Positions 3,647 through 27,499 of a stretch of DNA of 64,000 bases are shown piece after piece. The number at the start of each line of letters is the position of its first letter. Position 1 is the stretch's first letter. The notes beneath the pieces were generated by a model. That model did not search any database. It was not told where the DNA came from and saw only the letters and a program-made list of their open reading frames with translations. The stretch lies in NCBI GenBank assembly GCA_017470165.1, contig JAFUEX010000024.1, positions 75,398 to 139,397 of the forward strand, written 5' to 3'. A program made the translations under genes and the position numbers. The stretch is from Alphaproteobacteria bacterium. GTDB taxonomy: Bacteria > Pseudomonadota > Alphaproteobacteria > RF32 > CAG-239.

Positions 3647-5119
3647 TTATTTTTCGTCTGCCTCGTCTTTTTCGTCCGTTTTATCTCTCGAATTGGGCTT
3701 CGGAGCCCCTAGACCGTTTGTCGGATCAACCGTGAAAACGAGCCCAAGACCGGCAGCGCGTTCAGCATCAGCGGCTATTTGTTCGTCGACCTCGGCCGCA
3801 TCCCCACCCATTTCGGATATAATTTGCGAACGTGACGCAAATCCGCACAAAACTTTTTCCTTTTGGGCTGCAATTTCCTGTTGCGGGTTGACATACGCCC
3901 AACCAGCAGGCTGGAATCGTGCCCGATGGAATTTTTGCGGATCCTGCGTGTATTCGTTGATATTGACTTCAAGCGCACCGGATAGAACTGCGGCTTCAAT
4001 GAATTTATCCCAGATTCGGCGCAACACCTGATGGACAAGGCGATTTTGTTCTTGCCGATGTTTGCGCTGTGTGATATTTAATCCCATTCTGCTGGACGAG
4101 AAGTTTGTTTTGCTCATATCGTTCGTAAATTCTTCATACGTCAGCTGAATTGTGGCCGCCAAAGCGCGCAAACTTTGCGCCATGTACGGCTCGTATGAAG
4201 TTCCACTTTCGGCCGGAGCATTGAATTTGATATCTTCTCCGGGGGCGAGCGTCGTGATGGTTCCGGTTGTGATTTCAGCGATAGCCTCTCCGGGACCGGC
4301 ATCCTCATCTTCATCATCCGCATTTAATGTGCCATCCGCGACCGGCGTTGTGACAAATCCGGCCAGCATGGCGGCGAGTTTTTTCTTTGCAAGTTCTGCT
4401 TCATCATATTCGAGCATCTCGCGGGCTTTGAGCAATCCGGCAAATGCTTCCGGAACGCCTCGCACCTGTCCAGCCCACAATTGTTTGAAGTAATGGCAAA
4501 CCTCATCTGCCGGAACTTCAACCGTTTCAAGGTAATTTCCGGACACAATGCTTTCGTTCGGATGTTTTTTATAAAAAATGTATGACACGCGGTGTCCTGC
4601 TTTGTCAAATTTAACCCCTGCAACAGTTTCGCCGCCGTCAGCGTCGGCGTGATTTTCATCAAGCTTGCATTGATCAGCCTGCAGGAGCTGTAATTTTAGA
4701 GGGACGACGCCGAAATTTTCAGGCACAAAACGGATAAACACTTCACCGCCTTCCCAGCGTTCGCGAACTGCCAAGGAAAGGAGACTTGTCAGGTCATTTA
4801 CGCCCTCAAGGTCGCACTCGTGGCACCATTCGCTCCAAAGATGTTTTAATCTTTCGCAAAGATCACAATCATCATGTTTTGGCAAAATTCTGATGCCGGG
4901 ACCCACTATATTGCTGGCAATTGTTTCGTATGCGCTGTTCATGTACGGATAATTTCGTGTTAAATCTCGGGATTTTCTACGCAGTTCATCAAGCGAATAA
5001 ATGATAGCCGTATTCGGACCGGCCGAAGAAACACGCCAAGCACGCATACGACCGCGTCCTGTGGCTCCGAATGCAGGATCGGTCATTAGTCTTTTGGATC
5101 TTTTTTTGAATTTGAACAT
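3647..5119 (-). CDS. Portal protein, lambda gpB family.
   Basis: 490 aa. Positioned after the gpW-like gene and before the protease gene. The C-terminal tail is acidic. Confidence 0.7.
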   Translation of the reverse strand: MFKFKKRSKRLMTDPAFGATGRGRMRAWRVSSAGPNTAIIYSLDELRRKSRDLTRNYPYMNSAYETIASNIVGPGIRILPKHDDCDLCERLKHLWSEWCHECDLEGVNDLTSLLSLAVRERWEGGEVFIRFVPENFGVVPLKLQLLQADQCKLDENHADADGGETVAGVKFDKAGHRVSYIFYKKHPNESIVSGNYLETVEVPADEVCHYFKQLWAGQVRGVPEAFAGLLKAREMLEYDEAELAKKKLAAMLAGFVTTPVADGTLNADDEDEDAGPGEAIAEITTGTITTLAPGEDIKFNAPAESGTSYEPYMAQSLRALAATIQLTYEEFTNDMSKTNFSSSRMGLNITQRKHRQEQNRLVHQVLRRIWDKFIEAAVLSGALEVNINEYTQDPQKFHRARFQPAGWAYVNPQQEIAAQKEKVLCGFASRSQIISEMGGDAAEVDEQIAADAERAAGLGLVFTVDPTNGLGAPKPNSRDKTDEKDEADEK

Positions 5120-5343
5120 TATAACCCCCGATGTGTGACTGTTTTGATGACGCGGGTTTTTCTGATGCCAAGCTCGGCATCGATTGCGTCAATGGCGGCT
5201 TTGATGTCGCTCATGCTTCTGAATGTGGTGGTTTTGCCGTTATGGCTGATGGATGCAACGCCACTTGTGTAAGCGTTCACGAGCTTTTTTCTGCGTTCTT
5301 TCAGCTCGCTGATTTCGTTTTCTGTTAAATTATTCTTTGCCAT
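5119..5343 (-). CDS. Head-tail joining protein, gpW-like.
   Basis: 74 aa with a pattern similar to lambda gpW (...TSGVASISHNGKTTTFRSMSDIKAAIDAIDAELG). Its stop overlaps the portal start codon. Confidence 0.55.
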   Translation of the reverse strand: MAKNNLTENEISELKERRKKLVNAYTSGVASISHNGKTTTFRSMSDIKAAIDAIDAELGIRKTRVIKTVTHRGL

Positions 5344-5489
5344 GATTGCCTCGCATTTCGTATATCTAAAACTATTTTAGTCATTTTTGCCTTAAATGTT
5401 CAAAAAATTTTTTTTATTTCTTGACTATTCTTGTTTTTTATTGATATAATTCTGGCATAAAGTCATTTTTGACTTAAAATTTATTTTGT

Positions 5490-5566
5490 CGCGGGGTGGA
5501 GCAGTTAGTTAGCTCGCTGGTTTCATACTCCAGAGGTCGATGGTGCAAATCCATCTCCCGCAACCA
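5490..5566 (+). tRNA. tRNA-Met (anticodon CAT), initiator-like, encoded by the phage.
   Basis: 77 nt beginning CGCGGGGTGGAGCAG and ending TCCCGCAACCA, similar to E. coli tRNA-fMet. It has a C1:A72 mismatch, a TTCATAC anticodon loop, a perfect T-arm and an encoded CCA. Confidence 0.8.
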
Positions 5567-5660
5567 ACACAAGAAGATATTGTGGTATTTCTTCTTAAAA
5601 AAAGTGTTCCACACGTCGGTAGTTGTGAGCTCGATGTCGTTAATGTGAACTCTCATTTAT

Positions 5661-5745
5661 AGGACTGTAGCTCAATGGTAGAGCGTTCTGTGTGCACAGA
5701 TTAAACCGAGCAGTTTGTATGTGGGTTCGACTCCCGCCGGTCCGA
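5661..5745 (+). ncRNA. tRNA-like sequence with a non-canonical anticodon arm; possibly a tRNA pseudogene or decoy.
   Basis: Acceptor, D-arm (GCTC-AATGGTA-GAGC) and T-arm (GTGGG-TTCGACT-CCCGC) are canonical. The anticodon region is a perfect 14-nt palindrome (TCTGTGTGCACAGA), which gives a 4-nt loop. A long hairpin-forming variable region follows. Confidence 0.45.
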
Positions 5746-5883
5746 CCTATTACTTATGTCTGAGAGAACGCCGGTCGGATCGGCTTAAGACAAAACAGCT
5801 TAACCGAAAAGATTGGCAAGGAACACCGGATGGTTGCAAACGTCTGGTGTTTTCTTTTTGACTTTCAAGAAGAACGTGCTCCT

Positions 5884-5953
5884 GGCGGGAGGCTGCTGGG
5901 ACGGTTCCTCGCTCTGCGGTTCCCGTAGCCGGGCTGCGGGTGATTCGCTTTCG
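5884..5953. repeat. Left copy of a ~70-bp GC-rich direct repeat flanking the moron cassette.
   Basis: Shares the 18-nt exact core tgcggttcccgtagccgg and ~70% flanking identity with the copy at 7310-7380. Confidence 0.8.
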
Positions 5954-5999
5954 ATTGCGTATGTCATTCATGGCGCGCGCGGGCGGAGCCTTCCCAGAG

Positions 6000-6042
6000 C
6001 TTTTGCTTAAAGCAAAAGAAAGGTGTCGAATTCGACACCTTT
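6000..6042. terminator. Two adjacent perfect palindromes forming a probable (bidirectional) terminator.
   Basis: The palindromes are cttttgcttaaagcaaaag and aaaggtgtcgaattcgacaccttt. They lie just 3' of the minus-strand small ORF and are followed by T-rich sequence. Confidence 0.5.
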
Positions 6043-6047
6043 GGATG

Positions 6048-6197
6048 TTATTTGCCAATGTTATAGGCTTGGCATGCGGGCTGGTATCCGTGTTCGCACC
6101 GGATCTTGTTTTCCCAAACATCACCGACAATCAGCAAAAAATACATTGCCGCAAAAAATAAAATCATTGAAAAACCGTCTAAGATGTATTTAATCAT
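6048..6197 (-). CDS. 49-aa small membrane protein, paralogous to the ORF at 14018-14167.
   Basis: Translates to MIKYILDGFSMILFFAAMYFLLIVGDVWENKIRCEHGYQPACQAYNIGK, about 70% identical to the 14018 peptide. It is below the 60-aa cutoff of the ORF track. A terminator hairpin lies downstream. Confidence 0.6.
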   Translation of the reverse strand: MIKYILDGFSMILFFAAMYFLLIVGDVWENKIRCEHGYQPACQAYNIGK

Positions 6198-6525
6198 TTT
6201 CTGTAACCTTTTTTAGTGTTGTGCCATCTTAGCTATGAGAAGGTGGCGGACTCAACTAAAGCCGGTTACAGTTTGTAAGGCTTCGGGCTTTATTCAATAT
6301 ATTCGGCCTCTCATCCGCCATAATTTTGGTATAAAAAAACGCCTTCTTCGGGGGCGGTATACCGCTGTAACCTGTTTTAGTATCTACAGTATACACAAAA
6401 AATAGTTAAAAGTCAGTTAATAAATTCATTTTTTTATTTTTTTTGCTTTCCGGGAGTTGAAGCCGCTCGAAAGCGTGGGATTATTTCCGTTCCGGTCTTG
6501 TATTCTCCGCGCTCCCGGAGCGGTT

Positions 6526-7170
6526 TTATTCAAAATATCTTTTCAGCTTACCATCTCCTAGAATTTTTGCTACATCCTCTGCTTCTATTACATCTCCATT
6601 ATCATTGTAAAACTCCACTATGTTTGCCACGTTAAAAACGTGGTTTTCCTTGCGAAGCTTGCAATATCCGACAAGGTAAATTTCAGCCGAATATTCATTT
6701 TTTTGCTTTTGGGTTTGCCTTAATTGTTTTTTATAATCGCTCATCATTTCGCTATAGTAGGCTTTTTCTCCAGCCTCACACTTCGGGACTGAATCGATTT
6801 TGTATTGCATATCGTCAATTGCGGCCCTATCTTCAAGAATTGCCTGTTTAAATTCTTTGTTGTATTTCAGAATAAGCTGGATTTTTGCCGTTCTTGTCGT
6901 TGTTTCATCTTTGGAGTTGATATATTTGAAGGTCAAATCAATTCCGGTTTGGCTCCGCCACAGGACGTCGACAAATTCCTCATTTTCTTTTCGGAGTATT
7001 TCAGGCTTTTGTTTTTCTTTCAAATTGACATAAACAATCAGGGAGGCGATGATCCCGATTATTGCTCCACCATAAATAAAATCACAGCAGTTAAAAACAA
7101 CTGGAATAAACATAACCCAGAAGCCGACTATCGCGGATTTTACTATTGTGTAATCTATTTTTTTCTTCAT
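6526..7170 (-). CDS. Moron-encoded membrane protein (two N-terminal transmembrane helices plus a soluble domain), function unknown.
   Basis: 214-aa ORF with very low GC relative to the phage. It is inserted between TerL and gpW inside the direct-repeat-bracketed cassette. Possible -35/-10 elements lie in 7171-7300. Confidence 0.6.
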   Translation of the reverse strand: MKKKIDYTIVKSAIVGFWVMFIPVVFNCCDFIYGGAIIGIIASLIVYVNLKEKQKPEILRKENEEFVDVLWRSQTGIDLTFKYINSKDETTTRTAKIQLILKYNKEFKQAILEDRAAIDDMQYKIDSVPKCEAGEKAYYSEMMSDYKKQLRQTQKQKNEYSAEIYLVGYCKLRKENHVFNVANIVEFYNDNGDVIEAEDVAKILGDGKLKRYFE

Positions 7171-7309
7171 AACCCTGTGCCTTTTCTTAAAGATAATACT
7201 CCAAGTTTGACTTTATTATCCGATAAAAGTTCTAAAAAGTCAAGCATAAAGTCAAATTTGCCTTATTTTTTTGACTTTATGTGAAAATTGTTTATTGTAT
7301 GGTGCTCAT

Positions 7310-7380
7310 GGCGGGGGCGGCTTGGCGCGATTCTCCGCATTGCGGTTCCCGTAGCCGGAACGCGAGTGTTACGCTTTTGG
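7310..7380. repeat. Right copy of the ~70-bp GC-rich direct repeat.
   Basis: See 5884-5953; same orientation. Confidence 0.8.
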
Positions 7381-7450
7381 GTACGTCTACCGATAATGGC
7401 ACGCGCCGGCGTAACCAACCCAAGGACTTTTTGCCTTGAAAGTCAAAAAG

Positions 7451-9385
7451 CTATAATGATCCAAAACGTCCGACAATGCGACGCTTTTTCTTTTTTTGCA
7501 GGATCTTTGGTTTCGGTATGCTGTCAATGTTGACATCTGGGTTTTTCTCAACCATCTCGCGCACTTTTTCCGCATATTCCTGCCGTGCCAACATTCTTTC
7601 CCAACGGCGCCGCAAGTCAAGTCCTTGAAGCTTCATGCCTTCGAGCGCGGCGAGTGAATATCCGAAGATATCCAACGCTTCGTTGCGCTTTCGTCCGGGA
7701 CGCAATGCGTAATATCTTATTTTTCGACCTTTGACATATGATGTTTTGGCTTCTTCAGCTGTCAGCTGGACAAAGTGGTTTTCGTCATAGTCCATGTTGA
7801 AGTGACAATATCCGGGGGCTTGCGGATCATCAAGGCGCAAGCGGTTGTAGATGACATCTTTGACGGTGTCGGTGCCGACGAGGAAGAAGTCCAAATTCGT
7901 CTTTTTGAGCTTTCCGGGGGCTTTTTTTATAATCGGGCGACCTTCTCCAGCCATACCTTTAACCGCCCAAACACGCCGGTTCCATCGTTCCTGACAGAAT
8001 TTTCCGACCATTTGCGTCAAATAACCGCTATCCACACAGCAGGCGGATATAGACATTTCACCGACGAGTTCGTGTTCAATTGGCGTTAAGAGTAATTCGT
8101 CCAGTTCTTCCCAGATACGCTCCGCACCCGGATCACCGAGCAAAACTTTTTTACCAAGTCCATAGCTTTGATTGTTTGATGTCCAACCGATTCGCTCCAG
8201 CTCTATACGGTTATCTTGGACGTCGACGCCGGCCGTTATAACAACGACATCAGGCGGTGCTTTGCTGTAGGTTTCGCGGCGAGCGACCAACTTATCTTCC
8301 TCTACGCGCTCTCCTTTGTCTTCCCAAACTTCGCCTAGTGAAGTGTTAATGAATGTTTTTAATGCTTCCGGATCTTCTTTTGCATCCAAAAACGACCGAA
8401 CAACTTCCTCTAATTTCACCCATGGCGAATAACCTTCCCACAAAGCAAATCCAGCGTGCCCATGGAATGGCTTTGTTGCTCTCCATTCACCGAGACTGAT
8501 TGCGTGCCAACGCTCCACATCATTCCAAAGGCACCCGCAATGCGTGCAGGCGTACATTGCTGTTTTTGCGCTATCCTCTTTGGTTTCGAGCTTTTCCCAT
8601 TTGACGTTTTTCCACTCAATCCGCTGATATTCTCCGCAATGTGGACAAGGCACATAAAAATAACGTTGGTCGGATCGACGGAATGATGCATCTATTTTGC
8701 TCATGCCCTTTATCGTTGGTGTTGAGCACTTTATAACTTTTCTATTCCAAAACGTTGTCGTTCTTTTAACCGCCAACTTTACCGGATCGCCTTCCTGACC
8801 GGCTGACAATGGATAGCGGTCGATTTCGTCGAGCAATACAATTCTGATTGGACGGCTGGCCAAACTTGCGGCAGAGTTCGCTCCGGCCATGGTAATATGT
8901 CCGCCGGGGAACGATTTGTGCAATACCGTATTTCCACTGTCTTTACTGTCGGACACTTTGTTCTGCAGGCACGGTGTATCACGGAGCATCGGCGACAGAC
9001 GGTCGGTTGACCAACTCTTGGCAACCTCGACCGTTGGTTGAAGAAGCAGAATCGGGCAAGGATCCTTGTCTATGTAATAACCCACCGCATTGTTTAACAT
9101 TTCTGTTTTGCCTACCTGCGAGCTGGCGACAATCGTTATTTCTTCGCAGTCAATGTCTGATATGGCATCCATAAGCCCGCGCTGATATTCGGCTCGGCTG
9201 GTATTCCATTGTCCGGGCTCGGCTGAGCTTTCGGACGATAAGACGCGGTTTGCATCCGCCCATTCCGATATTGTTTGACGTGGCGGTAGCTCCAATCCTT
9301 TCAGAAAGCCCTCGCAAAAACTGCGCACCCCCTCAAAGATCAGCCATTCGTCCGAGAATTGTTCTGGCGCACCGTTCACACTCAT
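7451..9385 (-). CDS. Terminase large subunit, GpA family.
   Basis: 644 aa (lambda gpA is 641 aa). Has a Walker A-like motif (SSQVGKTE) and sits directly downstream of TerS. Confidence 0.8.
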   Translation of the reverse strand: MSVNGAPEQFSDEWLIFEGVRSFCEGFLKGLELPPRQTISEWADANRVLSSESSAEPGQWNTSRAEYQRGLMDAISDIDCEEITIVASSQVGKTEMLNNAVGYYIDKDPCPILLLQPTVEVAKSWSTDRLSPMLRDTPCLQNKVSDSKDSGNTVLHKSFPGGHITMAGANSAASLASRPIRIVLLDEIDRYPLSAGQEGDPVKLAVKRTTTFWNRKVIKCSTPTIKGMSKIDASFRRSDQRYFYVPCPHCGEYQRIEWKNVKWEKLETKEDSAKTAMYACTHCGCLWNDVERWHAISLGEWRATKPFHGHAGFALWEGYSPWVKLEEVVRSFLDAKEDPEALKTFINTSLGEVWEDKGERVEEDKLVARRETYSKAPPDVVVITAGVDVQDNRIELERIGWTSNNQSYGLGKKVLLGDPGAERIWEELDELLLTPIEHELVGEMSISACCVDSGYLTQMVGKFCQERWNRRVWAVKGMAGEGRPIIKKAPGKLKKTNLDFFLVGTDTVKDVIYNRLRLDDPQAPGYCHFNMDYDENHFVQLTAEEAKTSYVKGRKIRYYALRPGRKRNEALDIFGYSLAALEGMKLQGLDLRRRWERMLARQEYAEKVREMVEKNPDVNIDSIPKPKILQKKKKRRIVGRFGSL

Positions 9386-9698
9386 TCTTTATCAGCCTTT
9401 TGACCTTGCGGGCATCATTTTCAGCGGACACTTTGGCCGCCAGTCGTGCCGGTAATCCGGCGAGCTGGTCACGGAGCAAACGCCCAAGGTTGAACGCCAA
9501 GCGTTCTTGCTCTGCCTTATTGATAATGATGCCCTGTTTTTCTTCATACTCAACCTTTTTCAGCTTTCCTTCGTATTCGCCTCTTTCGGGGGGGGGGAGC
9601 TCACTTGGAAGTTCTGGCACTACGTAGTCAGCCGGTCCGAATTCTTCTTCAGCTGTTGATAATTTCGGAGATTGCCCTTTGAATTTCCTTGATGACAC
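9333..9698 (-). CDS. Paralog of the TerS C-terminal domain, as a separate overlapping ORF.
   Basis: The 121-aa ORF is clearly homologous to residues ~100-190 of the adjacent TerS (KKVEYEEKQGIIINKAEQERLAFNLGRLLRDQLAGLPARLAAKV vs RKIEYEQKMGTVVNKEGVEKAAFGVSRILREKLKALPNRLAPKV). It contains a C10 homopolymer at 9587-9596. Confidence 0.5.
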   Translation of the reverse strand: MSSRKFKGQSPKLSTAEEEFGPADYVVPELPSELPPPERGEYEGKLKKVEYEEKQGIIINKAEQERLAFNLGRLLRDQLAGLPARLAAKVSAENDARKVKRLIKNECERCARTILGRMADL

Positions 9699-10221
9699 TT
9701 TCCACCTCGTCCGTTAAGATTTTGAAATTCTCTTTTTGATCGGTAACCATTGTCACTTTTGGCGCGAGGCGGTTCGGTAGTGCCTTTAGTTTTTCACGCA
9801 ATATACGCGACACGCCGAATGCTGCCTTTTCGACACCTTCTTTGTTGACAACGGTCCCCATCTTTTGTTCATATTCAATTTTGCGCAAGCGGGCGGCATA
9901 GCTTTCCTTAACGGCTCGACTTTTTTGATAAGTGACACTCGATTGGGAATGCTGTCCGGACTCCTCTTCCGGTGCCGCCTCTTGCCTCAATGCCATGCCG
10001 ACGGATTGGGCAGATCTGCCGTCGCTTCGTGGCATTGTAGTCGCAGGATCGTTTGCCGGATCTGCGGTCGCCTTGATTTTGGAGATAGAGGCCTCAAGCT
10101 CTACCATTTCGCGACCGTTCTCACGTGACAGGACAATCCGCCCTTGCTTTATCAGCGAGGAGACGTATTGGTGCGAACGATTTATTCTGCGAGCAAACTC
10201 ACTCTTGGTTATAACTGTCAT
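9649..10221 (-). CDS. Terminase small subunit (Nu1-like, N-terminal HTH).
   Basis: 190 aa with an N-terminal HTH-like segment (SEFARRINRSHQYVSSLIKQGRI). Located immediately upstream of TerL. Confidence 0.6.
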   Translation of the reverse strand: MTVITKSEFARRINRSHQYVSSLIKQGRIVLSRENGREMVELEASISKIKATADPANDPATTMPRSDGRSAQSVGMALRQEAAPEEESGQHSQSSVTYQKSRAVKESYAARLRKIEYEQKMGTVVNKEGVEKAAFGVSRILREKLKALPNRLAPKVTMVTDQKENFKILTDEVESVIKEIQRAISEIINS

Positions 10222-11593: not shown

Positions 11594-11791
11594 TTTCGCA
11601 ACTCGTTTTTTTGGGTTGAAACATAGCGAAAGGCCGCGCCTCGCGCTGACCCCCGGCATTTAGCCGTCAGGAAGAACCTATCGTTTAGAATGCCATTTAA
11701 AGCCCCATAAACGCCCTCTGGTGCGTGAGCCTTTTTCTCTGTGTATGGTGTCTTATTTGCGTATAAAATCATTTTCTGCCCTCGTTTTTTT

Positions 11792-12445
11792 CTACCTTGC
11801 CGTCTTCAATGCATAGTCCATCGCCTTATCTAATTCCTTAGCAAAATTCATTTGATAAATACGTTGAGCCATTTTGTGCAAATTAAGCACCGGCCTTATA
11901 TCTTGCTTCTTTTTTCTTAGAAAAATAGGCGTCAATTTTCGACTTTTTCCAGCTCTTGTGACAAGCAATCTATTACCGCGCTTGCTTTTAATGAAAAAGT
12001 TACCTTTACTTTTGCTACCCTGTCCGGGGTAGGCTTGTTTTACTCCATATCCGAGTTTACGTCCTTTGAGTGGCACCCATCTATATTTTGCTGACTGTCC
12101 AAGGGTTCTACGCTCTGTCATATGTTCTCCCATGAGTTCAGCTATACCCCAGTGCGTAACGCCAACGATTGAGTGCATTGCATCTAATCCGTCTTTTTTA
12201 TTTGCCGGTATGGCATGGACCGCACGCGCAGGGGATGGTCCTTGTCCTACTTTCGCATGGGTGGCGTTTTGAAGATACGTTTTATGAACCACATTTAATC
12301 TTAAATTTGCTAATTTAACAACATCATCCGCCGCTTTAATAGCCACTCTTGTTAAAGCGAGCGAACAAGCGAATGGTAGCTGTTTTTGAGCTATATCGTC
12401 GAGATATTCTGGGAAATCTTTTAAATCTATGTTTATTTCTGCCAT
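11792..12445 (-). CDS. Hypothetical phage protein, first gene of the late/packaging operon.
   Basis: ORF with an AAGAGGG ribosome-binding site 7 nt upstream of the MAEINID start. No motif was recognised. Confidence 0.4.
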   Translation of the reverse strand: MAEINIDLKDFPEYLDDIAQKQLPFACSLALTRVAIKAADDVVKLANLRLNVVHKTYLQNATHAKVGQGPSPARAVHAIPANKKDGLDAMHSIVGVTHWGIAELMGEHMTERRTLGQSAKYRWVPLKGRKLGYGVKQAYPGQGSKSKGNFFIKSKRGNRLLVTRAGKSRKLTPIFLRKKKQDIRPVLNLHKMAQRIYQMNFAKELDKAMDYALKTAR

Positions 12446-12530
12446 TTTTCTGCCCTCTTGCCTTATTGTAGTCATAAATGACGGAAAAAGTCAAAAAATA
12501 ATTTGATAATTTTTTTTATATTTTTTTCCA

Positions 12531-12831
12531 ATTCACCGATTTCACCGATTTTAGGGGAATTTTGGGTTATTCCCTTATAGAATTCAAAAGATATACTGAA
12601 AAATTACAAAAAAGTTATAAAATTGGTTAAATCAGTGAATAATGTTAAAAATCAAAGACTTAATCTGTTAAGCAATATAAAGCACACCCCCATTTTTGAA
12701 AAAAAAGTTGCAAAAAACGGTGAAATTAGTCAATCGGTGAATAAAAAAATTGCAAAAAATCTGATTTTTTAAAACCTTAACTCAAAAATCCGGCTTAAAA
12801 ATGGATGATTTTTCCCTTAAAATCGGTGAAT
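12531..12831. promoter_or_regulatory. Divergent regulatory region with iterated ATTCACCGATT motifs.
   Basis: Direct copies at 12531-12541 and 12541-12550. Inverted copies (AATCGGTGAAT) at 12732-12742 and 12821-12831. A degenerate copy at 12629-12640. A GGGAAT-n8-ATTCCC palindrome at 12555-12575. Confidence 0.5.
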
Positions 12832-12904
12832 TTTCGCATTTTCGAATGCGTAAAAGTCAAAAATGACTATTTACTTGACTTTATCTTGCGGTTAGATTAT
12901 ATTA

Positions 12905-12927
12905 AAAATAATGCTTGACATTTGTAC
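12905..12927 (+). promoter_or_regulatory. Promoter-like element AAATAATGCTTGACATTTGTA upstream of the Bro-N gene.
   Basis: Contains a TTGACA -35 hexamer. A near-identical 22-mer recurs at 14213-14236. Confidence 0.45.
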
Positions 12928-13125
12928 GGGGTTTTGGCAAGCTGAAGACCTAAAAACTTGATCAATACGGCTTCAACACCCCGTCAGAGTGTATTTTTTA
13001 TGCCTGTTTGGCGGATGAGAGCTGTAAATATATTGAATAGCAGCCAAAGCCTTTATTGATCGGCTTTTAGTGAGTCCGCCGCCTTGCTCAATCTCAAGCG
13101 GTAACATCTAAAGAAAGATCAATAA

Positions 13126-14007
13126 ATGAATAATATTACCGTATTTAATTTTAATCAAAATCAAGTCAGAACTCAAACTATCGACAGCGAGCCGTGGTTT
13201 TGTTTGTCGGACGTTTGCGACGTGCTTAATATACAGAGATGTAGGATTGAGCGACTTTCTGCAGATGGGTGGATTAAAAATCAACTCATCGATAAATTAG
13301 GCAGATTTCAGGAAAGATATTTTATCAACGAACCGAACTTATACCGTTTAATTTTCCGTTCCAACAAACCACAAGCCCAAGCATTTGCCGATTGGGTATA
13401 TAATGAAGTGTTACCCAGTATTCGTAAAACCGGCGGTTATGGCTCTGTGGACGTTCCTGCGCTTGCCAAAGCTGTGGCAAATGAGTTGAAGTTTGTGCCG
13501 ACAACCGTGAGATTGCCTCTTGATGTGGAAGCGTTCTTCAGGAATTGTGTTGAATTGTCAGTCGCCGTTACGTCATGCGCAGAAACATACAACGCTTATA
13601 AAAAATGGTGTCAGTCCGAGGGTTATTGTCCGCTGACAGCCAATAAGCTCGGTCGCTCTTTGAAGGCTCTCGGCGTTCAAAAATGTTCAACTAGACGTGG
13701 TGAGAAGGCCTATCGTTTGGCATTAAAGGAGCCACAACCGGAGAATTACCGCTATAATTTTACTCCGGTGACGGAATTTTGCGGTGCCGGTGTGTATAAA
13801 AATAGGAGTGGTCAAGTCTTTCAGGCTATTGCCGGATTTGATGATAAGATTTTTTATACTTATTTTAATATGCATACCGCACGGGCTGAAGGCAAGAGCC
13901 ACGATATTCCGCTCAAGGTTTTTAATGCCAATGTCGTGGCAAAGATGACTTCCAAGACGGAGCTTATTCCTTTGGATGGTGAAATTGACTATGTTTCAGC
14001 TGATTAA
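13126..14007 (+). CDS. Bro-N domain antirepressor-like protein with a PriCT-like C-terminal domain.
   Basis: The N-terminal motif (FNFNQNQVRTQTIDSEPWFCLSDVCDVLNI) is typical of Bro-N/KilA-N. The C-terminal ~60 aa are homologous to the C-terminus of the phage primase at 16919-19414 (YKKWCQ...NKLGR...GEKAY). Confidence 0.6.
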   Translation: MNNITVFNFNQNQVRTQTIDSEPWFCLSDVCDVLNIQRCRIERLSADGWIKNQLIDKLGRFQERYFINEPNLYRLIFRSNKPQAQAFADWVYNEVLPSIRKTGGYGSVDVPALAKAVANELKFVPTTVRLPLDVEAFFRNCVELSVAVTSCAETYNAYKKWCQSEGYCPLTANKLGRSLKALGVQKCSTRRGEKAYRLALKEPQPENYRYNFTPVTEFCGAGVYKNRSGQVFQAIAGFDDKIFYTYFNMHTARAEGKSHDIPLKVFNANVVAKMTSKTELIPLDGEIDYVSAD

Positions 14008-14017
14008 GGAGATATGC

Positions 14018-14167
14018 CATGATAAAATATATTTTGGACGGCATCTCTATGCTGATGTTCTTTGCCTTGCTTTATGCGTTACTTATTATTGGTGATGCGT
14101 GGGAGAATAAAATCCGCTGTGATCGAGGTTATCAGCCCGCTTGTCAGGCAATGCGGTTAGGTCGGTA
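14018..14167 (+). CDS. 49-aa small membrane protein, paralog of 6048-6197.
   Basis: AAGGAG ribosome-binding site, then ATG. Translates to MIKYILDGISMLMFFALLYALLIIGDAWENKIRCDRGYQPACQAMRLGR and is followed by a rho-independent terminator. Confidence 0.6.
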
Positions 14168-14171
14168 AAAT

Positions 14172-14203
14172 AAGGGCGGTTTAATTACCGCCCGATTTTT
14201 TTC
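14172..14203 (+). terminator. Rho-independent terminator.
   Basis: gggcggtttaattaccgccc hairpin followed by a T7 run. Confidence 0.6.
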
Positions 14204-14212
14204 GTTATTTAT

Positions 14213-14260
14213 AAAATAATGCTTGACATTTTGTAGTTTATAGGCTACATTATATATAAA
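14213..14260 (+). promoter_or_regulatory. Sigma70-like promoter (duplicate of the 12905 element) for the DUF4160/DUF2442 module.
   Basis: AAATAATGCTTGACATTTTGTA with TTGACA, a 17-nt spacer, then TACATT/TATATA. Confidence 0.5.
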
Positions 14261-14282
14261 ATAAAGAAAGGAGAAATTAAAA

Positions 14283-14537
14283 ATGCCAATTATCGCTCGT
14301 TTTTATGGTCTGGTTATTAAAATGTTTTTAATCGGTAGCGAACATAATCCGCCGCACATTCACGTTGTTTATGGCGAATTCAGTGCTCTGTATAACATTC
14401 AGACGCTGGAATTAATGGAAGGTGATTTGCCATCACGCGCTGCTGCTATGGTTAAAGAATGGCTCAGTATTCATAAAGATGATTTAATGGAAATGTGGAA
14501 CAGCCAAAAATTCAAGACTTTGCCACCATTAAAATAG
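14283..14537 (+). CDS. DUF4160-family protein.
   Basis: 84 aa. The N-terminal pattern (IIARFYGLVIKMFLIGSEHNPPHIHVVYGEF) matches the DUF4160 family, which is usually paired with DUF2442. Confidence 0.55.
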   Translation: MPIIARFYGLVIKMFLIGSEHNPPHIHVVYGEFSALYNIQTLELMEGDLPSRAAAMVKEWLSIHKDDLMEMWNSQKFKTLPPLK

Positions 14538-14548
14538 GGAGGTGTCCG

Positions 14549-15037
14549 ATGTTTATTAAAATTAAAAAAATAGAGATTCTGCCGGATTATGCTATCAAGG
14601 CAACCTTTGATCATGATGTTGTCAAAACCTATGATTTTAAGCCTTTATTTGATAAATATCCGGTATTTGAGCCGCTTAAAAATGAGACGTTTTTTGCAAA
14701 CGCTGTTATTGATTGCGGTGGTTATGGTTTGATGTGGACTGATGATATTGATATTGATGCTGGGGAACTTTGGTATAACGGCATAACGACGCTTGATACC
14801 GAACAGGATATTGTAAATTATCTTAATGCCGTTGTTAATGAAACAGACACCAAGCTGTTTATCAAAGCTTTAAAAGATATTGCAAAGTCAAAAGGTGTTA
14901 ATGATTTGGCAAAAAAAATGGGAGTAAATCGTGAAAGCCTTTATAAATCGTTAGACGGTGAGCGCAAACCCAAGTATGAAACAATCGACAAGTTTCTACG
15001 GGCAATCGGCATGAAAATAACATTTTGTCCGGCATAA
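14549..15037 (+). CDS. DUF2442 domain fused to an HTH addiction-module-antidote-like domain.
   Basis: GGGAGG ribosome-binding site before the ATG at 14549. The N-terminus (IEILPDYAIKATFDHDVVKTYDF) is DUF2442-like. The C-terminus (KDIAKSKGVNDLAKKMGVNRESLYKSL) is HTH antidote-like. Confidence 0.55.
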   Translation: MFIKIKKIEILPDYAIKATFDHDVVKTYDFKPLFDKYPVFEPLKNETFFANAVIDCGGYGLMWTDDIDIDAGELWYNGITTLDTEQDIVNYLNAVVNETDTKLFIKALKDIAKSKGVNDLAKKMGVNRESLYKSLDGERKPKYETIDKFLRAIGMKITFCPA

Positions 15038-16946: not shown

Positions 16947-19414
16947 GTTTCTTCACGAAGTTTTATGCCTACATATGCTTTTTCTCCGCGTGGCGTTGTG
17001 CCCTTGGTTATATGCCTTTCATATAACCGGCGACCGAGCTTGTTTTTGCTGTATGGCGTATGACCGGCATCCTGACACCATTTTTTATAGTTTTCGTAGA
17101 GGCTGGCGCATGAGATTGTCGCGCCCACAGATTTAATTGTGTTTTCTTCAAGATAACTGCCAAGAACGTCCATTTCCGAGCGGTATTCCTGCGTTGCTTC
17201 GCGCACCGCATCAGGTGGGTTCAATCCTTGCCGTTGCCATTCTAAGCAACCCTTGACCGCCCACGCCAGAATGCCGGGTAGCTCATTTTTCAGCTTCGTA
17301 ATCAGGAGTTTGTCTTTGAATGGTCCGTCAATTGGCGCATCCGGATCTGTCTTGTCATAAAATTTCGCTTCAAATGGTATTAAAAGCAAACGCCGCCAGA
17401 TGCCGTCGTCGGTGCCGCGGATTTCAGGTTTATGGTTTGTGGCCAGCCACAGCTTAAAATGCGGCGTAAATTCGAACGGATTTTGATGTAAATTTCGCGC
17501 CGTTATTGTCGTGTCGCCGGTCGCCTCTTTGATTAGGCTTTCATCAAGAGCTCGGTCGGCTTTTGTTTCCGACGCGGTGACGAAACGGGCAGAGCGGAGC
17601 ATTGCAAGGAACGGGTTAGCATCATTTGCGCGACCTGTTTCCATAAACGCATCAGCTTTGGTTTTGACGTGATAATCATTCATTAAGGCTTGGACGGTGT
17701 CCAAAAATGTGGATTTACCATTTGAACCTTTACCATGGAGCACAAACATACATTGCTCTCTGGTATCGCCGGACAGACTGTAACCGATGGCACGTTGCAC
17801 AAAGCTGATCATGTCCGTGTCATTGTTTAAGATTTCCCGCAGAAATTTCTGCCATGCCGGACATTTTGCTTTTGGATCAAATGCAACCGTGCTTTGTTTT
17901 GTGCAATAAAAATCCGGGCTATGGTTCATGAGCTTGCCGGTCGTCAGGTCAATGACGCCATTTGCACAATTAAAGTAGAGCTGATCGCAATCCAGTTTTT
18001 TGATGTCTACGCATAAATCCGGCTGCGCTAATTTGAGCGCGTAGTTAATGCGTCCGCCTTCTTGGCTCTTTTTGCACCAGTTCTTTATGCCGGATTTTTG
18101 ATGTTCTTCGACATAGTCGGCTTCTTTGGCTATATCGAGGGCGGTTCTTTTGGCCATATTGATAACGCGCAGATCTGCGTGCTCGTGTTCCCATACACCT
18201 TTGCTGTAAATTATCCACCCCATACCCGGTGCAAATTTGACTATTTTACCCCAGCGGGTGACAATTCTTTGCGAATTGCCGACGTCGGTTCTCGGCCGAT
18301 ATGCCAATTTTGCGAATATGCTTTCTTCCGGATCCGGATATTCCGGCATCGTGCTGTTATAGTATTCTTCCGGTGGCTCAGGTTCTGCGTCGCGGGCATC
18401 TCGGACAGGTTGTGCTTCGTTGATCATCTTAACAACAGCATCGGCTCCTACTTCCTGCAGAAGCTGATTACTGTCCTTTATCGATAATGGCGGACGTGCG
18501 CACATTAGGTTTGTGAACCCACGGTCCAAAAATCCGGCCAGAATTTTATTCATGGTTTCGTCCGGCTTGCTTCCCGGTTCGTCGTTGTCGCGGACGACGA
18601 TTAAGGCGCGTCCTTTAGGCTCATCAATTTTGCTCATGAAGTTGATGCCCATTGTGCACCATACTTCCATTTTTGTTGTTTGCGCGAGTGTGAGTGCGTC
18701 TTCAGGTCCCTCGGTTAATAGGACAGGTCCATTCGGATCGCTTCCTTTGATTTTAATAGGACAACCGGCAGGAAAGCCGTTGGTGCGTTTCTTAACGGCA
18801 AGATTTGCCTTATGCCCTTGTGCGTCCAGATATACACTTTGAACCGCCCGGATGACGCCTTTATCATCGCGCGCGATACAGACCAGCGATCCGCCCCCAC
18901 GAGACTTGTTTGGCCGGAATTTAAACTGATTAAGTGGGGCACCTGTAATGCCTCGGCTTTTGAGGTATAATTGCGCAGGAGTGCCGCGTAAATCAACAAG
19001 CTCGGAGGTAATTTTATCAAGTTTTTTCTGTTTCTCCTCATCATATTCGTCTTGCTCCTGTTGCTGTTGCGCGGTGTCAACTGCCGGTCTATCGTATTTC
19101 GGGGTGTATTCTTTTGTTTCCCCGCCTTCCATCCCGAACATTCCAGCCAGTTTGCGGGCTGCTTCTACGCGATCAAGGCGGAACACTTTCGCGCATATTC
19201 CGATTGGATCGCCGACCGGCTCATCTGAAGAAAAATCCGAGCCTTTACCTGTTTTAATGTTAATCAACAAACTTTTTCCAGGGTGTCCGTCCCAATCTCC
19301 GCATTGGAATTCATTTCCAACCCTTTTTCCTTGCGGCAACCAATCCTTGAGTAATCCCTCAAGATTTGCCAAGGCTCTCGCGTTGACCGCTTCAAAATCA
19401 ACCATTCCTGCCAT
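16919..19414 (-). CDS. DNA primase/helicase (Toprim domain plus D5/P4-type SF3 helicase).
   Basis: Toprim-like segment (LLTEGPEDALTL...VRDNDEPG) and Walker A (LHGKGSNGKST). The C-terminal PriCT-like tail is shared with the Bro protein. 831 aa. Confidence 0.75.
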   Translation of the reverse strand: MAGMVDFEAVNARALANLEGLLKDWLPQGKRVGNEFQCGDWDGHPGKSLLINIKTGKGSDFSSDEPVGDPIGICAKVFRLDRVEAARKLAGMFGMEGGETKEYTPKYDRPAVDTAQQQQEQDEYDEEKQKKLDKITSELVDLRGTPAQLYLKSRGITGAPLNQFKFRPNKSRGGGSLVCIARDDKGVIRAVQSVYLDAQGHKANLAVKKRTNGFPAGCPIKIKGSDPNGPVLLTEGPEDALTLAQTTKMEVWCTMGINFMSKIDEPKGRALIVVRDNDEPGSKPDETMNKILAGFLDRGFTNLMCARPPLSIKDSNQLLQEVGADAVVKMINEAQPVRDARDAEPEPPEEYYNSTMPEYPDPEESIFAKLAYRPRTDVGNSQRIVTRWGKIVKFAPGMGWIIYSKGVWEHEHADLRVINMAKRTALDIAKEADYVEEHQKSGIKNWCKKSQEGGRINYALKLAQPDLCVDIKKLDCDQLYFNCANGVIDLTTGKLMNHSPDFYCTKQSTVAFDPKAKCPAWQKFLREILNNDTDMISFVQRAIGYSLSGDTREQCMFVLHGKGSNGKSTFLDTVQALMNDYHVKTKADAFMETGRANDANPFLAMLRSARFVTASETKADRALDESLIKEATGDTTITARNLHQNPFEFTPHFKLWLATNHKPEIRGTDDGIWRRLLLIPFEAKFYDKTDPDAPIDGPFKDKLLITKLKNELPGILAWAVKGCLEWQRQGLNPPDAVREATQEYRSEMDVLGSYLEENTIKSVGATISCASLYENYKKWCQDAGHTPYSKNKLGRRLYERHITKGTTPRGEKAYVGIKLREETWSEFNRGW

Positions 19415-27354: not shown

Positions 27355-27499
27355 TTTATTTTGTCGCCATTTTTGGCTTCATGTGTTAACCCTCGGCGGT
27401 TTTTGTTCAACAAAACACGGAATGTATGAAATTCCGGGCAATATTTATATTGACTACTGTCCGAAGTGCCATTCTATACGGGGGCGCCATGAAAGATAA
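27335..27499 (+). CDS. 54-aa zinc-ribbon protein.
   Basis: MLQKIHSLFCRHFW...CPKCHSIRGRHER. It is embedded in the longer 27260-27499 track ORF in the same frame. Confidence 0.3.
   Translation: MLQKIHSLFCRHFWLHVLTLGGFCSTKHGMYEIPGNIYIDYCPKCHSIRGRHER

What the first reader, a model, noticed from the sequence alone, without database searches (positions are those of the whole stretch)
5884..7380. Moron cassette inserted between terminase and gpW, bracketed by ~70-bp GC-rich direct repeats.
In lambda-like phages W follows A directly. Here ~2 kb is inserted between them.

About 1.4 kb of the insert is flanked by same-orientation repeats sharing an exact 18-mer (tgcggttcccgtagccgg) and ~70% identity over 70 bp. 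The repeats are GC-rich while the cargo is markedly AT-rich.

The cargo is a 214-aa membrane protein (two N-terminal TM helices plus a soluble domain) and a 49-aa membrane peptide, each with its own terminator.

The architecture (own promoter, membrane proteins, foreign composition) fits a superinfection-exclusion or abortive-infection type moron. Neither protein matches a family I recognise.
Basis: partly seen in the sequence, partly recalled or inferred. Interest (0 to 1): 0.72.

Follow-up and report, generated by a model that had tools for sequence, protein, structure and literature searches.

The report
Orphan copies of a phage hypermutation target
The two GC-rich repeats are not the ends of a mobile cassette but short stray copies of the hypervariable tip of this prophage's own tail-fibre gene, the stretch that its diversity-generating retroelement rewrites; the membrane-protein genes between them sit in the same place in related phages that have no repeats.

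Summary
There are two same-orientation copies (5876-5996 and 7302-7422), 121 nt long and 70% identical, sharing an exact 18-mer. They are 63-67% GC around a 37.5% GC cargo.

At least 26 contigs of related phages carry the same cargo (p214, p49, two tRNA-type genes) between terL and gpW with neither repeat.

The repeats are homologues of the variable repeat (VR) of a Bordetella-phage-type diversity-generating retroelement (DGR). That DGR belongs to the same prophage and lies 10.6 kb beyond the window's left edge. It comprises an Mtd-like tail-fibre gene, a template repeat (TR) and a reverse transcriptase.

- **Copy A** differs from the resident TR at 17 adenines and only 3 clustered other bases. 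It keeps the main VR's GC-rich 3' end exactly, but sits in a 44-65 codon stub.
- **Copy B** is a clean 180-bp insertion that rewrites the last codons of terL. It has about 19 non-adenine changes, so it is decayed or foreign.

Both copies are inverted relative to the DGR. Most likely they are inert orphan VR fragments, though A could still be a homing site.

The "moron in a variable terL-gpW slot" part of the finding holds. Interest is moderate to low.

The parts
5876..5996 (+). Copy A, an orphan DGR variable-repeat (VR) fragment. Positions 5876-5987 align without gaps to the 112-nt TR/VR unit. The GC run GGCGCGCGCGGGCGG is at 5972-5986. The next ~12 nt (AGCCTTCCCA..) match the sequence that follows the main VR, not the sequence that follows the TR.
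   Evidence: blastn gives 85% identity over 121 nt to the prophage's VR and 82% over 112 nt to its TR. Against the TR there are 17 differences at TR adenines and 3 at other bases (positions 51, 52, 54) within the 112-nt unit. tblastn matches the C-terminus of a relative's target protein.
5876..6010 (+). Mini-ORF over copy A in the VR reading frame: VLLAGGCWDGSSLCGSRSRAAGDSLSIAYVIHGARGRSLPRAFA*. It is open upstream to a TTG at 5813 (65 codons). No ATG or clear ribosome-binding site was seen. It corresponds only to the last ~40 residues of the Mtd-like protein.
   Evidence: alignment of the full target protein to Bordetella phage Mtd.
6000..6042 (.). Two adjacent hairpins 3' of copy A: CTTTTGCTT-A-AAGCAAAAG (6000-6018), then the bidirectional terminator AAAGGTGTCGAATTCGACACCTTT (6019-6042). 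Relatives also have the terminator.
   Evidence: DNA fold z = -4.5.
7281..7460 (+). Copy B, a 180-bp insertion absent from L002, L003 and L372-L377. Its VR-like core is 7302-7413, with a degenerate GC run at 7398-7412. The mini-ORF 7281-7439 reads VKIVYCMVLMAGAAW...DFLP*. A hairpin lies at 7427-7450. The insertion supplies the last codons and the stop of terL.
   Evidence: blastn gives 74% identity to the VR and 72% to the TR. There are 15-16 differences at TR adenines and 19 at other bases within the 112-nt unit. terL ends ..GRFGSL* here against ..GRFAG* in relatives.
6526..7170 (-). p214 cargo gene: two N-terminal hydrophobic helices, a helical hairpin and a weak WYL-like C-terminal beta region. 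Its promoter-like site is at 7243-7215.
6440..6520 (-). Structured element directly 3' of p214 that resembles Rfam sRNA-Xcc1 but scores below the family threshold. It probably acts as the gene's terminator region.
   Evidence: 38.2 bits against a gathering score of 53. Relatives give the same hit at 36-38 bits.
6048..6197 (-). p49 cargo gene, a small hydrophobic peptide (MIKYILDGFSMILFFAAMYFLLIVGDVWENKIRCEHGYQPACQAYNIGK).
   Evidence: It is 92% identical at the amino-acid level in L003, where the DNA is 82% identical.
5490..5747 (+). tRNA-Met (5490-5566) and an anticodon-less tRNA-like gene (5661-5747). They are driven by a consensus-like promoter at 5421-5450 and share the strand of copies A and B.
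7451..9385 (-). Large terminase (gpA type), the upstream border of the variable slot.
5119..5343 (-). gpW-like head-tail adaptor, the downstream border of the variable slot.
   Evidence: phrog_2545, E = 6.5e-11.

Best explanation
**What the repeats are.** They are two truncated, ectopic copies of the 3' end of this prophage's own DGR target gene, meaning the variable repeat (VR) plus its GC-rich homing end.

**Where the DGR is.** It lies outside the window on the same scaffold. In locus L368, whose + strand is the window's - strand, the parts are:
- an Mtd-like tail-fibre gene at 11697-13184
- the VR at 13047-13158
- the template repeat (TR) at 13265-13376
- the reverse transcriptase at 13541-14584

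This places the DGR about 16.4 kb from copy A and about 17.9 kb from copy B.

**How a DGR works (established knowledge).** The TR is transcribed and reverse-transcribed with errors at adenines. The cDNA then replaces the VR.

**Copy A (shown).**
- It matches the resident TR at all but 3 non-adenine positions.
- It differs at 17 TR adenines.
- It carries the same GC-rich 3' end and following bases as the main VR.
- It is followed by a hairpin.
- It is only a 44-65 codon stub, not a lectin-fold gene.

**Copy B (shown).**
- It is a 180-bp insertion that keeps a few bases of target-gene flank on both sides of the VR, so it came from VR DNA rather than from TR cDNA.
- It has about 19 non-adenine changes and a degraded GC end.

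**Inferred.**
- Both copies arose by illegitimate duplication of VR DNA into promoter- and terminator-rich intergenic spots of an already existing moron region.
- B is older, or came from a diverged DGR.
- The identical 18-mer is a short conversion patch between B and A.
- Neither copy mobilises the cargo.
- Most likely they are inert relics. My estimates are about 0.55 for both inert, about 0.3 that A still receives mutagenic homing, and about 0.1 that they have a role such as a silent VR archive or antisense regulation.
For: **Homology to DGR repeats.**
- In relatives L205, L265 and L208 the same ~112-nt sequence forms the C-terminal coding end of a long ORF. In L205 and L265 it is repeated ~215 nt downstream in an adenine-rich form, directly before a 347-aa reverse transcriptase gene. 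L208's contig ends just after the VR.
- The window's own prophage has the same module. It is contiguous with the window at 100% identity.
- A and B hit its VR at E = 7e-36 and 7e-18.

**The module is a DGR.**
- The TR and VR differ at 14 adenines and at no other base within the 112-nt unit.
- The RT has the IGNFTSQ and YCDD motifs.
- The target protein matches Pfam mtd_2nd (E = 2e-25).
- The target also matches Bordetella phage Mtd structures 1YU0-1YU4 through its C-terminal VR.

**A belongs to the resident lineage.** It shares the resident TR's lineage-specific non-adenine bases (T30, C33) against L265's TR.

**The repeats are not cassette ends.** The cargo occurs without the repeats in at least 26 related contigs.

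**The window itself holds no RT or full target gene**.
Against: - No direct evidence on activity. A, B and also the main VR are identical in all contigs available from different samples, so a fossil cannot be told apart from a live target.
- Three non-adenine mismatches (CGCTGTCGG in the TR against CGTAGCCGG in A and B) show that no full-length homing from the present TR has overwritten A since they arose.
- No donor was found for the short non-VR flanks of the insertions, so how the duplication happened is unknown.
- No Avd-type accessory gene was detected by Pfam near the RT.
- The paper search found non-adjacent targets within prophages but no description of ORF-less VR stubs. I therefore cannot say how common they are.
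Confidence: 0.85

Rival explanations
1. Copy A (and less likely B) is a live secondary DGR target. TR cDNA made by the prophage's RT homes to it as it does to the main VR, diversifying a small ORF or simply an ORF-less landing pad.
For: - A-to-TR differences are concentrated at TR adenines: 17 at adenines against 3 at other bases within the 112-nt unit. Over the 118 positions compared the counts are 18 of 26 adenines and 7 of 92 other bases, Fisher p = 5e-10.
- The GC run and the next ~12 nt are identical to the main VR's homing end.
- A stable hairpin follows.
- A has no other non-adenine change, whereas B has about 16 more. This fits repeated correction from the TR.
- Non-adjacent targets inside prophages are described by Wu et al. 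2018 (PMC5758913).
Against: - A dead copy of an earlier VR state would show the same adenine-only pattern.
- The clustered mismatch at positions 51, 52 and 54 has not been overwritten by the TR.
- There is no variation of A among 7-8 contigs, although the main VR is equally invariant.
- There is no lectin-fold gene, start codon or ribosome-binding site.
Confidence: 0.3
2. One reading: the repeats are recombination sites or ends of a mobile moron cassette that carried the two membrane-protein genes into the terL-gpW junction.
For: The repeats are in direct orientation and flank a 1.4-kb AT-rich cargo. The terL-gpW junction is a variable slot.
Against: - The same cargo sits at the same place without either repeat in L003/L375, L372-L374 and L376-L377.
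- The repeats are only 70% identical.
- Each has its own independent insertion or replacement boundaries.
- They are homologous to the DGR VR.
- The tRNA genes lie outside the bracket yet are conserved together with the cargo.
Confidence: 0.03
3. The repeats are paralogous small structured RNA genes in the plus-strand tRNA array. Copy A sits exactly where relatives have a tRNA-like sequence.
For: - They are on the same strand as the tRNAs and lie downstream of TTGACT -35-like motifs.
- Copy A occupies the slot of a 72-nt tRNA-like sequence in relatives.
- One helix shows two compensatory changes between A and B, by my own inspection.
Against: - No Rfam match even at E <= 10.
- Folding energies are no better than shuffles (z = -1.8 and +0.56).
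- The sequence is fully explained as coding-frame VR homology, with an open frame identical to the Mtd-like C-terminus.
Confidence: 0.03
4. The repeats are copies of a genome-wide REP- or MITE-like element of the host.
For: They are GC-rich, about 120-180 bp, intergenic, and have short inverted AT-rich motifs at the edges (I2).
Against: - There are only two copies in 64 kb.
- A two-block pattern scan of 185,579 species genomes gave only chance or coding hits.
- The first 120 metagenome hits to the 17-mer extended no more than 43 nt in blastn against A and B.
- The only real homologues are DGR VR and TR repeats.
Confidence: 0.02

Closest known systems
Bordetella phage BPP-1 diversity-generating retroelement (mtd - TR - brt)
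   Same: - The target is an Mtd homologue: Pfam mtd_2nd, and PDB 1YU0-1YU4 aligned through the C-terminal VR.
- The VR lies at the 3' end of the tail-fibre gene and the TR lies just downstream.
- The RT has the IGxxxSQ motif.
- TR and VR differ only at adenines.
- A G/C-only run ends the repeat.
   Different: - No avd-like gene was detected between the target gene and the TR or near the RT.
- The phage has a Mu-like myovirus tail module and a lambda-like head module.
- The genome carries two extra truncated VR copies 16-18 kb away in inverted orientation. To my knowledge BPP-1 has none.
DGRs with multiple or non-adjacent target genes (Treponema denticola; survey of Wu et al. 2018, PMC5758913)
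   Same: - Extra TR-matching repeats lie away from the RT but within the same prophage (<50 kb).
- They are recognised by adenine-only differences with minor exceptions, which is the criterion quoted. Copy A meets it.
   Different: - Described non-adjacent VRs end real target genes that encode lectin or Ig folds. Copies A and B are 44-65 codon stubs with no such domain.
- B fails the adenine-only criterion.
- Both are inverted relative to the late operon.
Phage morons in structural-gene junctions (lambdoid phages)
   Same: The cargo between terL and gpW is AT-rich, has its own promoter and terminators, and occupies a slot whose content differs among relatives.
   Different: - Here the cargo also includes plus-strand tRNA-type genes and the DGR-derived fragments.
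- No function is shown.
- p214 has only three sequence clusters in 5.8 billion proteins.
Silent-cassette antigenic variation (Neisseria pilS/pilE, Borrelia vls). This is an analogy for the speculative reading only.
   Same: Partial, unexpressed copies of the variable end of a surface-binding protein are stored elsewhere in the genome. The 18-nt identical patch between otherwise 70%-identical copies would fit short-patch conversion.
   Different: No evidence of exchange with the expressed VR. The conserved arms are short (about 14 and 25 nt). Only two copies exist, and one is decayed.

Membership tests
Diversity-generating retroelement (the prophage's system, off-window in L368) | Reverse transcriptase of the DGR type, with an [ILV]GxxxSQ motif and YxDD | tested here: met
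   IGNFTSQ at residue 182 and YCDD at residue 214. Pfam RVT_1 E = 5e-19.
Diversity-generating retroelement (the prophage's system, off-window in L368) | A TR/VR repeat pair whose differences fall at TR adenines | tested here: met
   14 differences at adenines and 0 at other bases within the 112-nt unit.
Diversity-generating retroelement (the prophage's system, off-window in L368) | VR at the C-terminus of a ligand-binding (C-type lectin / Mtd) target protein | tested here: met
   Pfam mtd_2nd E = 2e-25. phmmer to Mtd 1YU1 gives E = 1e-12, aligned through the VR.
Diversity-generating retroelement (the prophage's system, off-window in L368) | Accessory variability determinant (Avd) gene | tested here: inconclusive
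   No Pfam match in the ORFs next to the RT. Small unannotated ORFs are present.
Diversity-generating retroelement (the prophage's system, off-window in L368) | Observed hypervariation of the VR among genomes or reads | tested here: inconclusive
   The VR is identical in the 3-4 contigs available. No read data.
DGR variable repeat / target site: copy A | Full-length homology to the TR, with mismatches confined to TR adenines | tested here: met
   17 mismatches at adenines. The 3 at other bases are clustered at positions 51, 52 and 54, which fits the 'minor exceptions' wording of the survey criterion.
DGR variable repeat / target site: copy A | VR-type 3' homing end (GC run plus VR-specific bases, distinct from the TR's end) | tested here: met
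   GGCGCGCGCGGGCGGAGCCTTCCCA is identical to the main VR. The TR continues ATACGG instead. Whether this end functions cannot be tested here.
DGR variable repeat / target site: copy A | Lies at the end of a gene encoding a complete binding domain | tested here: not met
   Only a 44-65 codon ORF with no ATG. No target-gene homology upstream of 5876.
DGR variable repeat / target site: copy B | Mismatches to the TR confined to adenines, and an intact homing end | tested here: not met
   19 non-adenine differences within the 112-nt unit. The GC run is degraded to GGCACGCGCCGGCGT.
DGR template repeat: copies A and B | Adenine-rich template next to the RT, with a structured downstream spacer | tested here: not met
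   A has 9 adenines and B 15, against 25 in the TR. There is no RT in the window. The flanks do not match the TR spacer.
   The cargo is present without repeats in L003/L375, L372-L374 and L376-L377.
REP/MITE-type dispersed repeat | Many dispersed copies in the genome or in related genomes | tested here: not met
   Two copies in 64 kb. Collection scans returned only chance hits.
Known structured RNA family (Rfam 15) | Covariance-model match or an unusually stable fold | tested here: not met
   No hit on either copy at E <= 10. Fold z-scores are -1.8 and +0.56.
WYL-domain protein (p214) | Pfam WYL match above the gathering score | tested here: inconclusive
   14.7 bits against a cut-off of 21.8 for the window protein. 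All 3 homologues hit, best E = 2.3e-5. The PADLOC RTasWYL-YodC model gives 2e-6. The AF2 model is low-confidence with no fold match.

The most novel reading that the evidence does not exclude
The orphan VR stubs are not junk. One possibility is that copy A is an ORF-less site that the DGR still rewrites. Another is that the stubs act as silent archived VR alleles that exchange short patches with each other and with the expressed tail-fibre VR, giving the phage a memory of earlier receptor specificities alongside random hypermutation. The 18-nt identical island would be a trace of such exchange. A third variant is that their antisense copies, carried in the late-operon mRNA, pair with TR or VR RNA and damp DGR activity.
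Probability: 0.12. Interest if true: 0.65.

Novelty: new variant of a known kind. Interest (0 to 1): 0.4.

Why it matters
- It corrects a plausible-looking but wrong reading. Direct repeats around AT-rich cargo looked like a mobile cassette, but they are fragments of the phage's own hypermutation target.
- For DGR biology, it is a natural case where the VR plus its homing end has been copied to ectopic, non-genic sites in the same phage. One copy has every known cis feature intact. This allows a test of whether homing needs a gene context, and whether VR segments get duplicated or converted.
- For annotation, such stubs will be reported as extra "targets" by TR-matching pipelines, and they can mislead repeat-based searches for mobile elements.
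- The terL-gpW junction is documented as a cargo hot spot in this group of Mu-tailed, lambda-headed prophages of gut Alphaproteobacteria.

Tried and rejected
- **Small RNA genes.** This was my first hypothesis. Rfam at gathering and at E <= 10 gave nothing on the repeats, and folding was no better than shuffles. I considered HDV-like (theta) ribozyme, tRNA-like and omega-RNA/PATE readings by eye and dropped them once coding-frame homology to VRs appeared.
- **Exact 18-mer in viral contigs.** One hit (L001), which is a chance match inside a high-GC ORF.
- **Two-block pattern scans.** In viral contigs this gave L039, which has some extra similarity but no support and was treated as chance. In genome contigs all 28 hits were chance or coding, for example rpoB of Anaerolineales.
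- **17-mer in metagenome contigs.** Absence cannot be claimed from this.
- **Pattern for a TR or VR lineage carrying GTANCC.** No hits in viral contigs.
- **blastn against known phages.** Only the tRNA-Met matched.
- **Donor search for the non-VR flanks of the insertions.** Nothing found.
- **Test for ongoing diversification.** I compared 7-8 contigs. A, B and the main VR are all invariant, so the test is uninformative.
- **p214.**
  - The AF2 model had pLDDT 61.
  - Foldseek against the PDB gave no hit with E < 0.1.
  - NCBIfam gave nothing useful.
- **Blocked look-ups.**
  - One window ORF was not on record.
  - I solved this by way of the capsid gene and a homologue search.
Full report
**Observation.** The repeat pair is real and longer than reported. 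The copies are 5876-5996 and 7302-7422, 121 nt long, 70% identical without gaps, and 1426 nt apart. A gapped alignment extends the similarity to about 148 nt. The exact 18-mer occurs only at these two places in the window even with 3 mismatches allowed, against 0.02 expected by chance. The copies are 67% and 63% GC, the DNA between them is 37.5% GC, and terL is 49%.

- small terminase at 9649-10221
- gpA-type large terminase at 7451-9385
- a 214-aa ORF at 6526-7170
- a 49-aa ORF at 6048-6197
- a gpW-like adaptor at 5119-5343
- a lambda-type portal at 3647-5119

**The repeats do not bracket the cargo.** The closest viral-contig relative (L003, terL 95% identical) has p214 (78%), p49 (92%), both tRNA-type genes, gpW and portal in the same order. 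The 6012-7280 DNA aligns at 82%, but neither repeat is there. Alignment of the junctions gives two separate events.
- Copy B is a clean 180-bp insertion (7281-7460), absent from L003 and L002. It lies so close to terL that it supplies the last codons and the stop..GRFGSL* here against ..GRFAG* in relatives.
- Copy A lies in a replaced segment (about 5748-6018). There the relatives have a shorter sequence containing a 72-nt tRNA-like stretch, followed by the same terminator hairpin.

A protein search showed that p214 has only three clusters in the 5.8-billion-protein collection. The two non-identical clusters stand for at least 26 contigs from several samples. All places shown have 107 nt between terL and p214, against 281 nt here, and no VR-like sequence.

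**What the repeats are.** Rfam found nothing on them and their predicted folds are no better than shuffles. Scans with the 18-mer or a two-block pattern returned only chance hits in viral, genome and metagenome collections.

Scans with the conserved 5' and 3' blocks found true homologues in viral contigs. The hits were L205 and L265 with two copies each, L208 (another part of the L003 phage contig) and L188.

Reading those loci settled the matter.
- The sequence is the C-terminal coding end of a ~495-aa ORF.
- In L205 and L265 it is repeated ~215 nt downstream with adenines wherever the first copy varies.
- In those two loci a 347-aa reverse transcriptase gene follows directly.

This is the architecture of a diversity-generating retroelement: variable repeat (VR), template repeat (TR) and RT.

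**The window's own DGR.** The window contains no RT and no full target gene, only the two fragments. I walked along the source scaffold using the capsid gene and then the baseplate J protein. This recovered L368, which overlaps the window at 100% identity, with window position = 2485 minus L368 position. After a Mu-like tail and baseplate module it carries:
- an Mtd-like gene at 11697-13184 (Pfam mtd_2nd, E = 2e-25), which aligns to Bordetella phage Mtd structures through its C-terminal VR
- the VR at 13047-13158
- the TR at 13265-13376
- an RT at 13541-14584 with the IGNFTSQ and YCDD motifs
- an integrase at 17791-19068

TR and VR differ at 14 adenines and at no other base within the 112-nt unit. 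The DGR is therefore 10.6 kb beyond the window's left edge. Copies A and B lie 16.4 and 17.9 kb from it, in inverted orientation relative to it and to the late operon.

**Copy A.**
- It is 85% identical to the main VR over 121 nt and 82% identical to the TR over 112 nt.
- Within the 112-nt unit it differs from the TR at 17 adenines and at three clustered other positions, CGCTGTCGG against CGTAGCCGG.
- It shares the resident TR's lineage-specific bases (T30, C33) rather than those of L265's TR.
- Its 3' end, GGCGCGCGCGGGCGGAGCCTTCCCA, equals the main VR's end and not the TR's.
- A 9-bp hairpin and the terminator follow.
- The VR reading frame is open (VLLAGGCWDGSSLCGSRSRAAGDSLSIAYVIHGARGRSLPRAFA*), but only for 44-65 codons, with no ATG. 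That is far short of a lectin fold.

**Copy B.**
- It is 72-74% identical to the TR and VR.
- It has 19 non-adenine differences within the 112-nt unit. By eye these include a compensated -1/+1 frameshift.
- Its GC run is degraded.
- It keeps TGTATG upstream and ..CCCAAG..TGCC downstream of the repeat, matching target-gene flanks that the TR lacks (by inspection). It therefore descends from VR DNA, not from TR cDNA.

**Inference on history.** A and B share the GTAGCC cluster, which no related TR or VR has. Apart from that cluster, A has no non-adenine change, whereas B has about 16 more. The simplest reading is that B is older, or came from a diverged DGR, and that A is younger or kept corrected. 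On that reading the exact 18-mer, an island of identity in a 70% pair, is a short conversion patch from B into A. This is inference, not shown.

**Active or fossil?** A frozen copy of an earlier VR state and a live target both predict adenine-only differences, so the pattern cannot decide. Seven to eight contigs from different samples are identical over 5100-7500. The main VR is equally invariant in the contigs that cover it, so this comparison is uninformative.

The uncorrected 3-base cluster argues against recent full-length homing into A. The intact homing end and the clean non-adenine positions argue for competence. My estimates are both inert about 0.55, A live about 0.3, and some function about 0.1.

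**The cargo.** The "moron in a variable slot" part of the finding stands.
- In most relatives with terL about 45% identical, gpW follows terL by about 180 nt.
- L004 (terL 81% identical) carries three unrelated genes in the slot: an AAA_17 kinase-like protein, a 509-aa protein and an ASCH protein.
- L015 and L024 carry inserts of other sizes.
- p214 has two N-terminal hydrophobic helices, a helical hairpin and a weak WYL-like C-terminus. Pfam scores it below threshold, though all three homologues hit, and one PADLOC model gives 2e-6.
- Its AF2 model is poor and finds no fold match.
- p49 is a conserved hydrophobic peptide.
- No function was tested.

**Comparison with what is known.** The system is a BPP-1-type DGR. 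Non-adjacent targets inside prophages are documented, and the survey criterion of adenine-only differences with minor exceptions would list copy A as a putative target (PMC5758913). What differs here is that the extra repeats are gene-less stubs, inverted, sitting in intergenic regulatory DNA, and one of them is decayed. The papers I could search did not describe such stubs, but that is weak evidence of novelty.

**Verdict.**
- The cassette interpretation is refuted.
- The identity of the repeats as orphan DGR variable-repeat fragments is well supported.
- Their activity is undetermined.

Interest is moderate to low. It is a useful correction and a small natural experiment for DGR target recognition.

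Noticed in passing
window 5661-5747 (+): A tRNA-like gene with normal acceptor, D and T arms and a long variable arm. Its anticodon arm is a 5-bp stem with a 4-nt loop, so it has no anticodon. It is 100% identical in L003, L372 and L376 while the neighbouring DNA is ~82% identical, which suggests strong constraint. It could be a decoy or some other non-decoding tRNA mimic.
   Followed up: partly
L372 about 4181-4241 (-), also L003 and L376; the position corresponding to window copy A: Relatives carry a 72-nt sequence (GCGCGTTGC...CAACGCGCA) with tRNA-like acceptor and T arms but no proper anticodon arm. Neither ARAGORN nor Rfam calls it. In the window it has been replaced by copy A.
   Followed up: partly
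window 6440-6520 (-): A structured element directly 3' of p214 matches Rfam sRNA-Xcc1 below threshold (38 bits against 53). The same hit appears in L372 and L376 (36-38 bits). sRNA-Xcc1-family hits next to accessory genes have also been reported in APSE phages (PMC7313666).
   Followed up: partly
window 6526-7170 (-): p214 is a membrane-anchored protein with a weak WYL-like C-terminus. Its family has only three clusters among 5.8 billion proteins, all in this phage group.
   Followed up: partly
window 5854-5869 (+) and 7435-7450 (complementary); also near 5466, 5858, 7267 (+) and 7243 (-): The motif TTTTTGACTTT recurs at intergenic sites. A 16-nt exact inverted pair lies just upstream of copy A and just downstream of copy B. 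It looks like a phage promoter or terminator motif. Both VR stubs lie 13-17 nt downstream of one.
   Followed up: no
window 7451-7460 (-): The insertion of copy B changed the C-terminus of the large terminase from ..GRFAG* (643 aa in relatives) to ..GRFGSL* (644 aa).
   Followed up: yes
L004 7951-10457 (+): A relative with terL 81% identical carries an AAA_17/dNK-like P-loop protein, a 509-aa protein with a PIN-like N-terminus (by eye) and an ASCH-domain protein in the terL-gpW slot. This is a candidate defence or counter-defence cargo.
   Followed up: partly
window 27389-27489 (+): ARAGORN calls a 101-nt tRNA-His with anticodon ATG that Rfam does not report at its gathering score. It is probably a false positive or a degenerate gene.
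   Followed up: no
L368 13358-13460 (+), off-window: The spacer after the TR folds markedly better than shuffles as DNA (z = -3.3). This is as expected for the structured RNA that primes DGR reverse transcription. No avd-like gene was found by Pfam near the RT.
   Followed up: no
whole window / scaffold: Identical proteins are named by NCBI as coming from a MAG of an Alphaproteobacteria bacterium. The prophage combines a lambda-like head module with a Mu-like contractile tail and baseplate.
   Followed up: no
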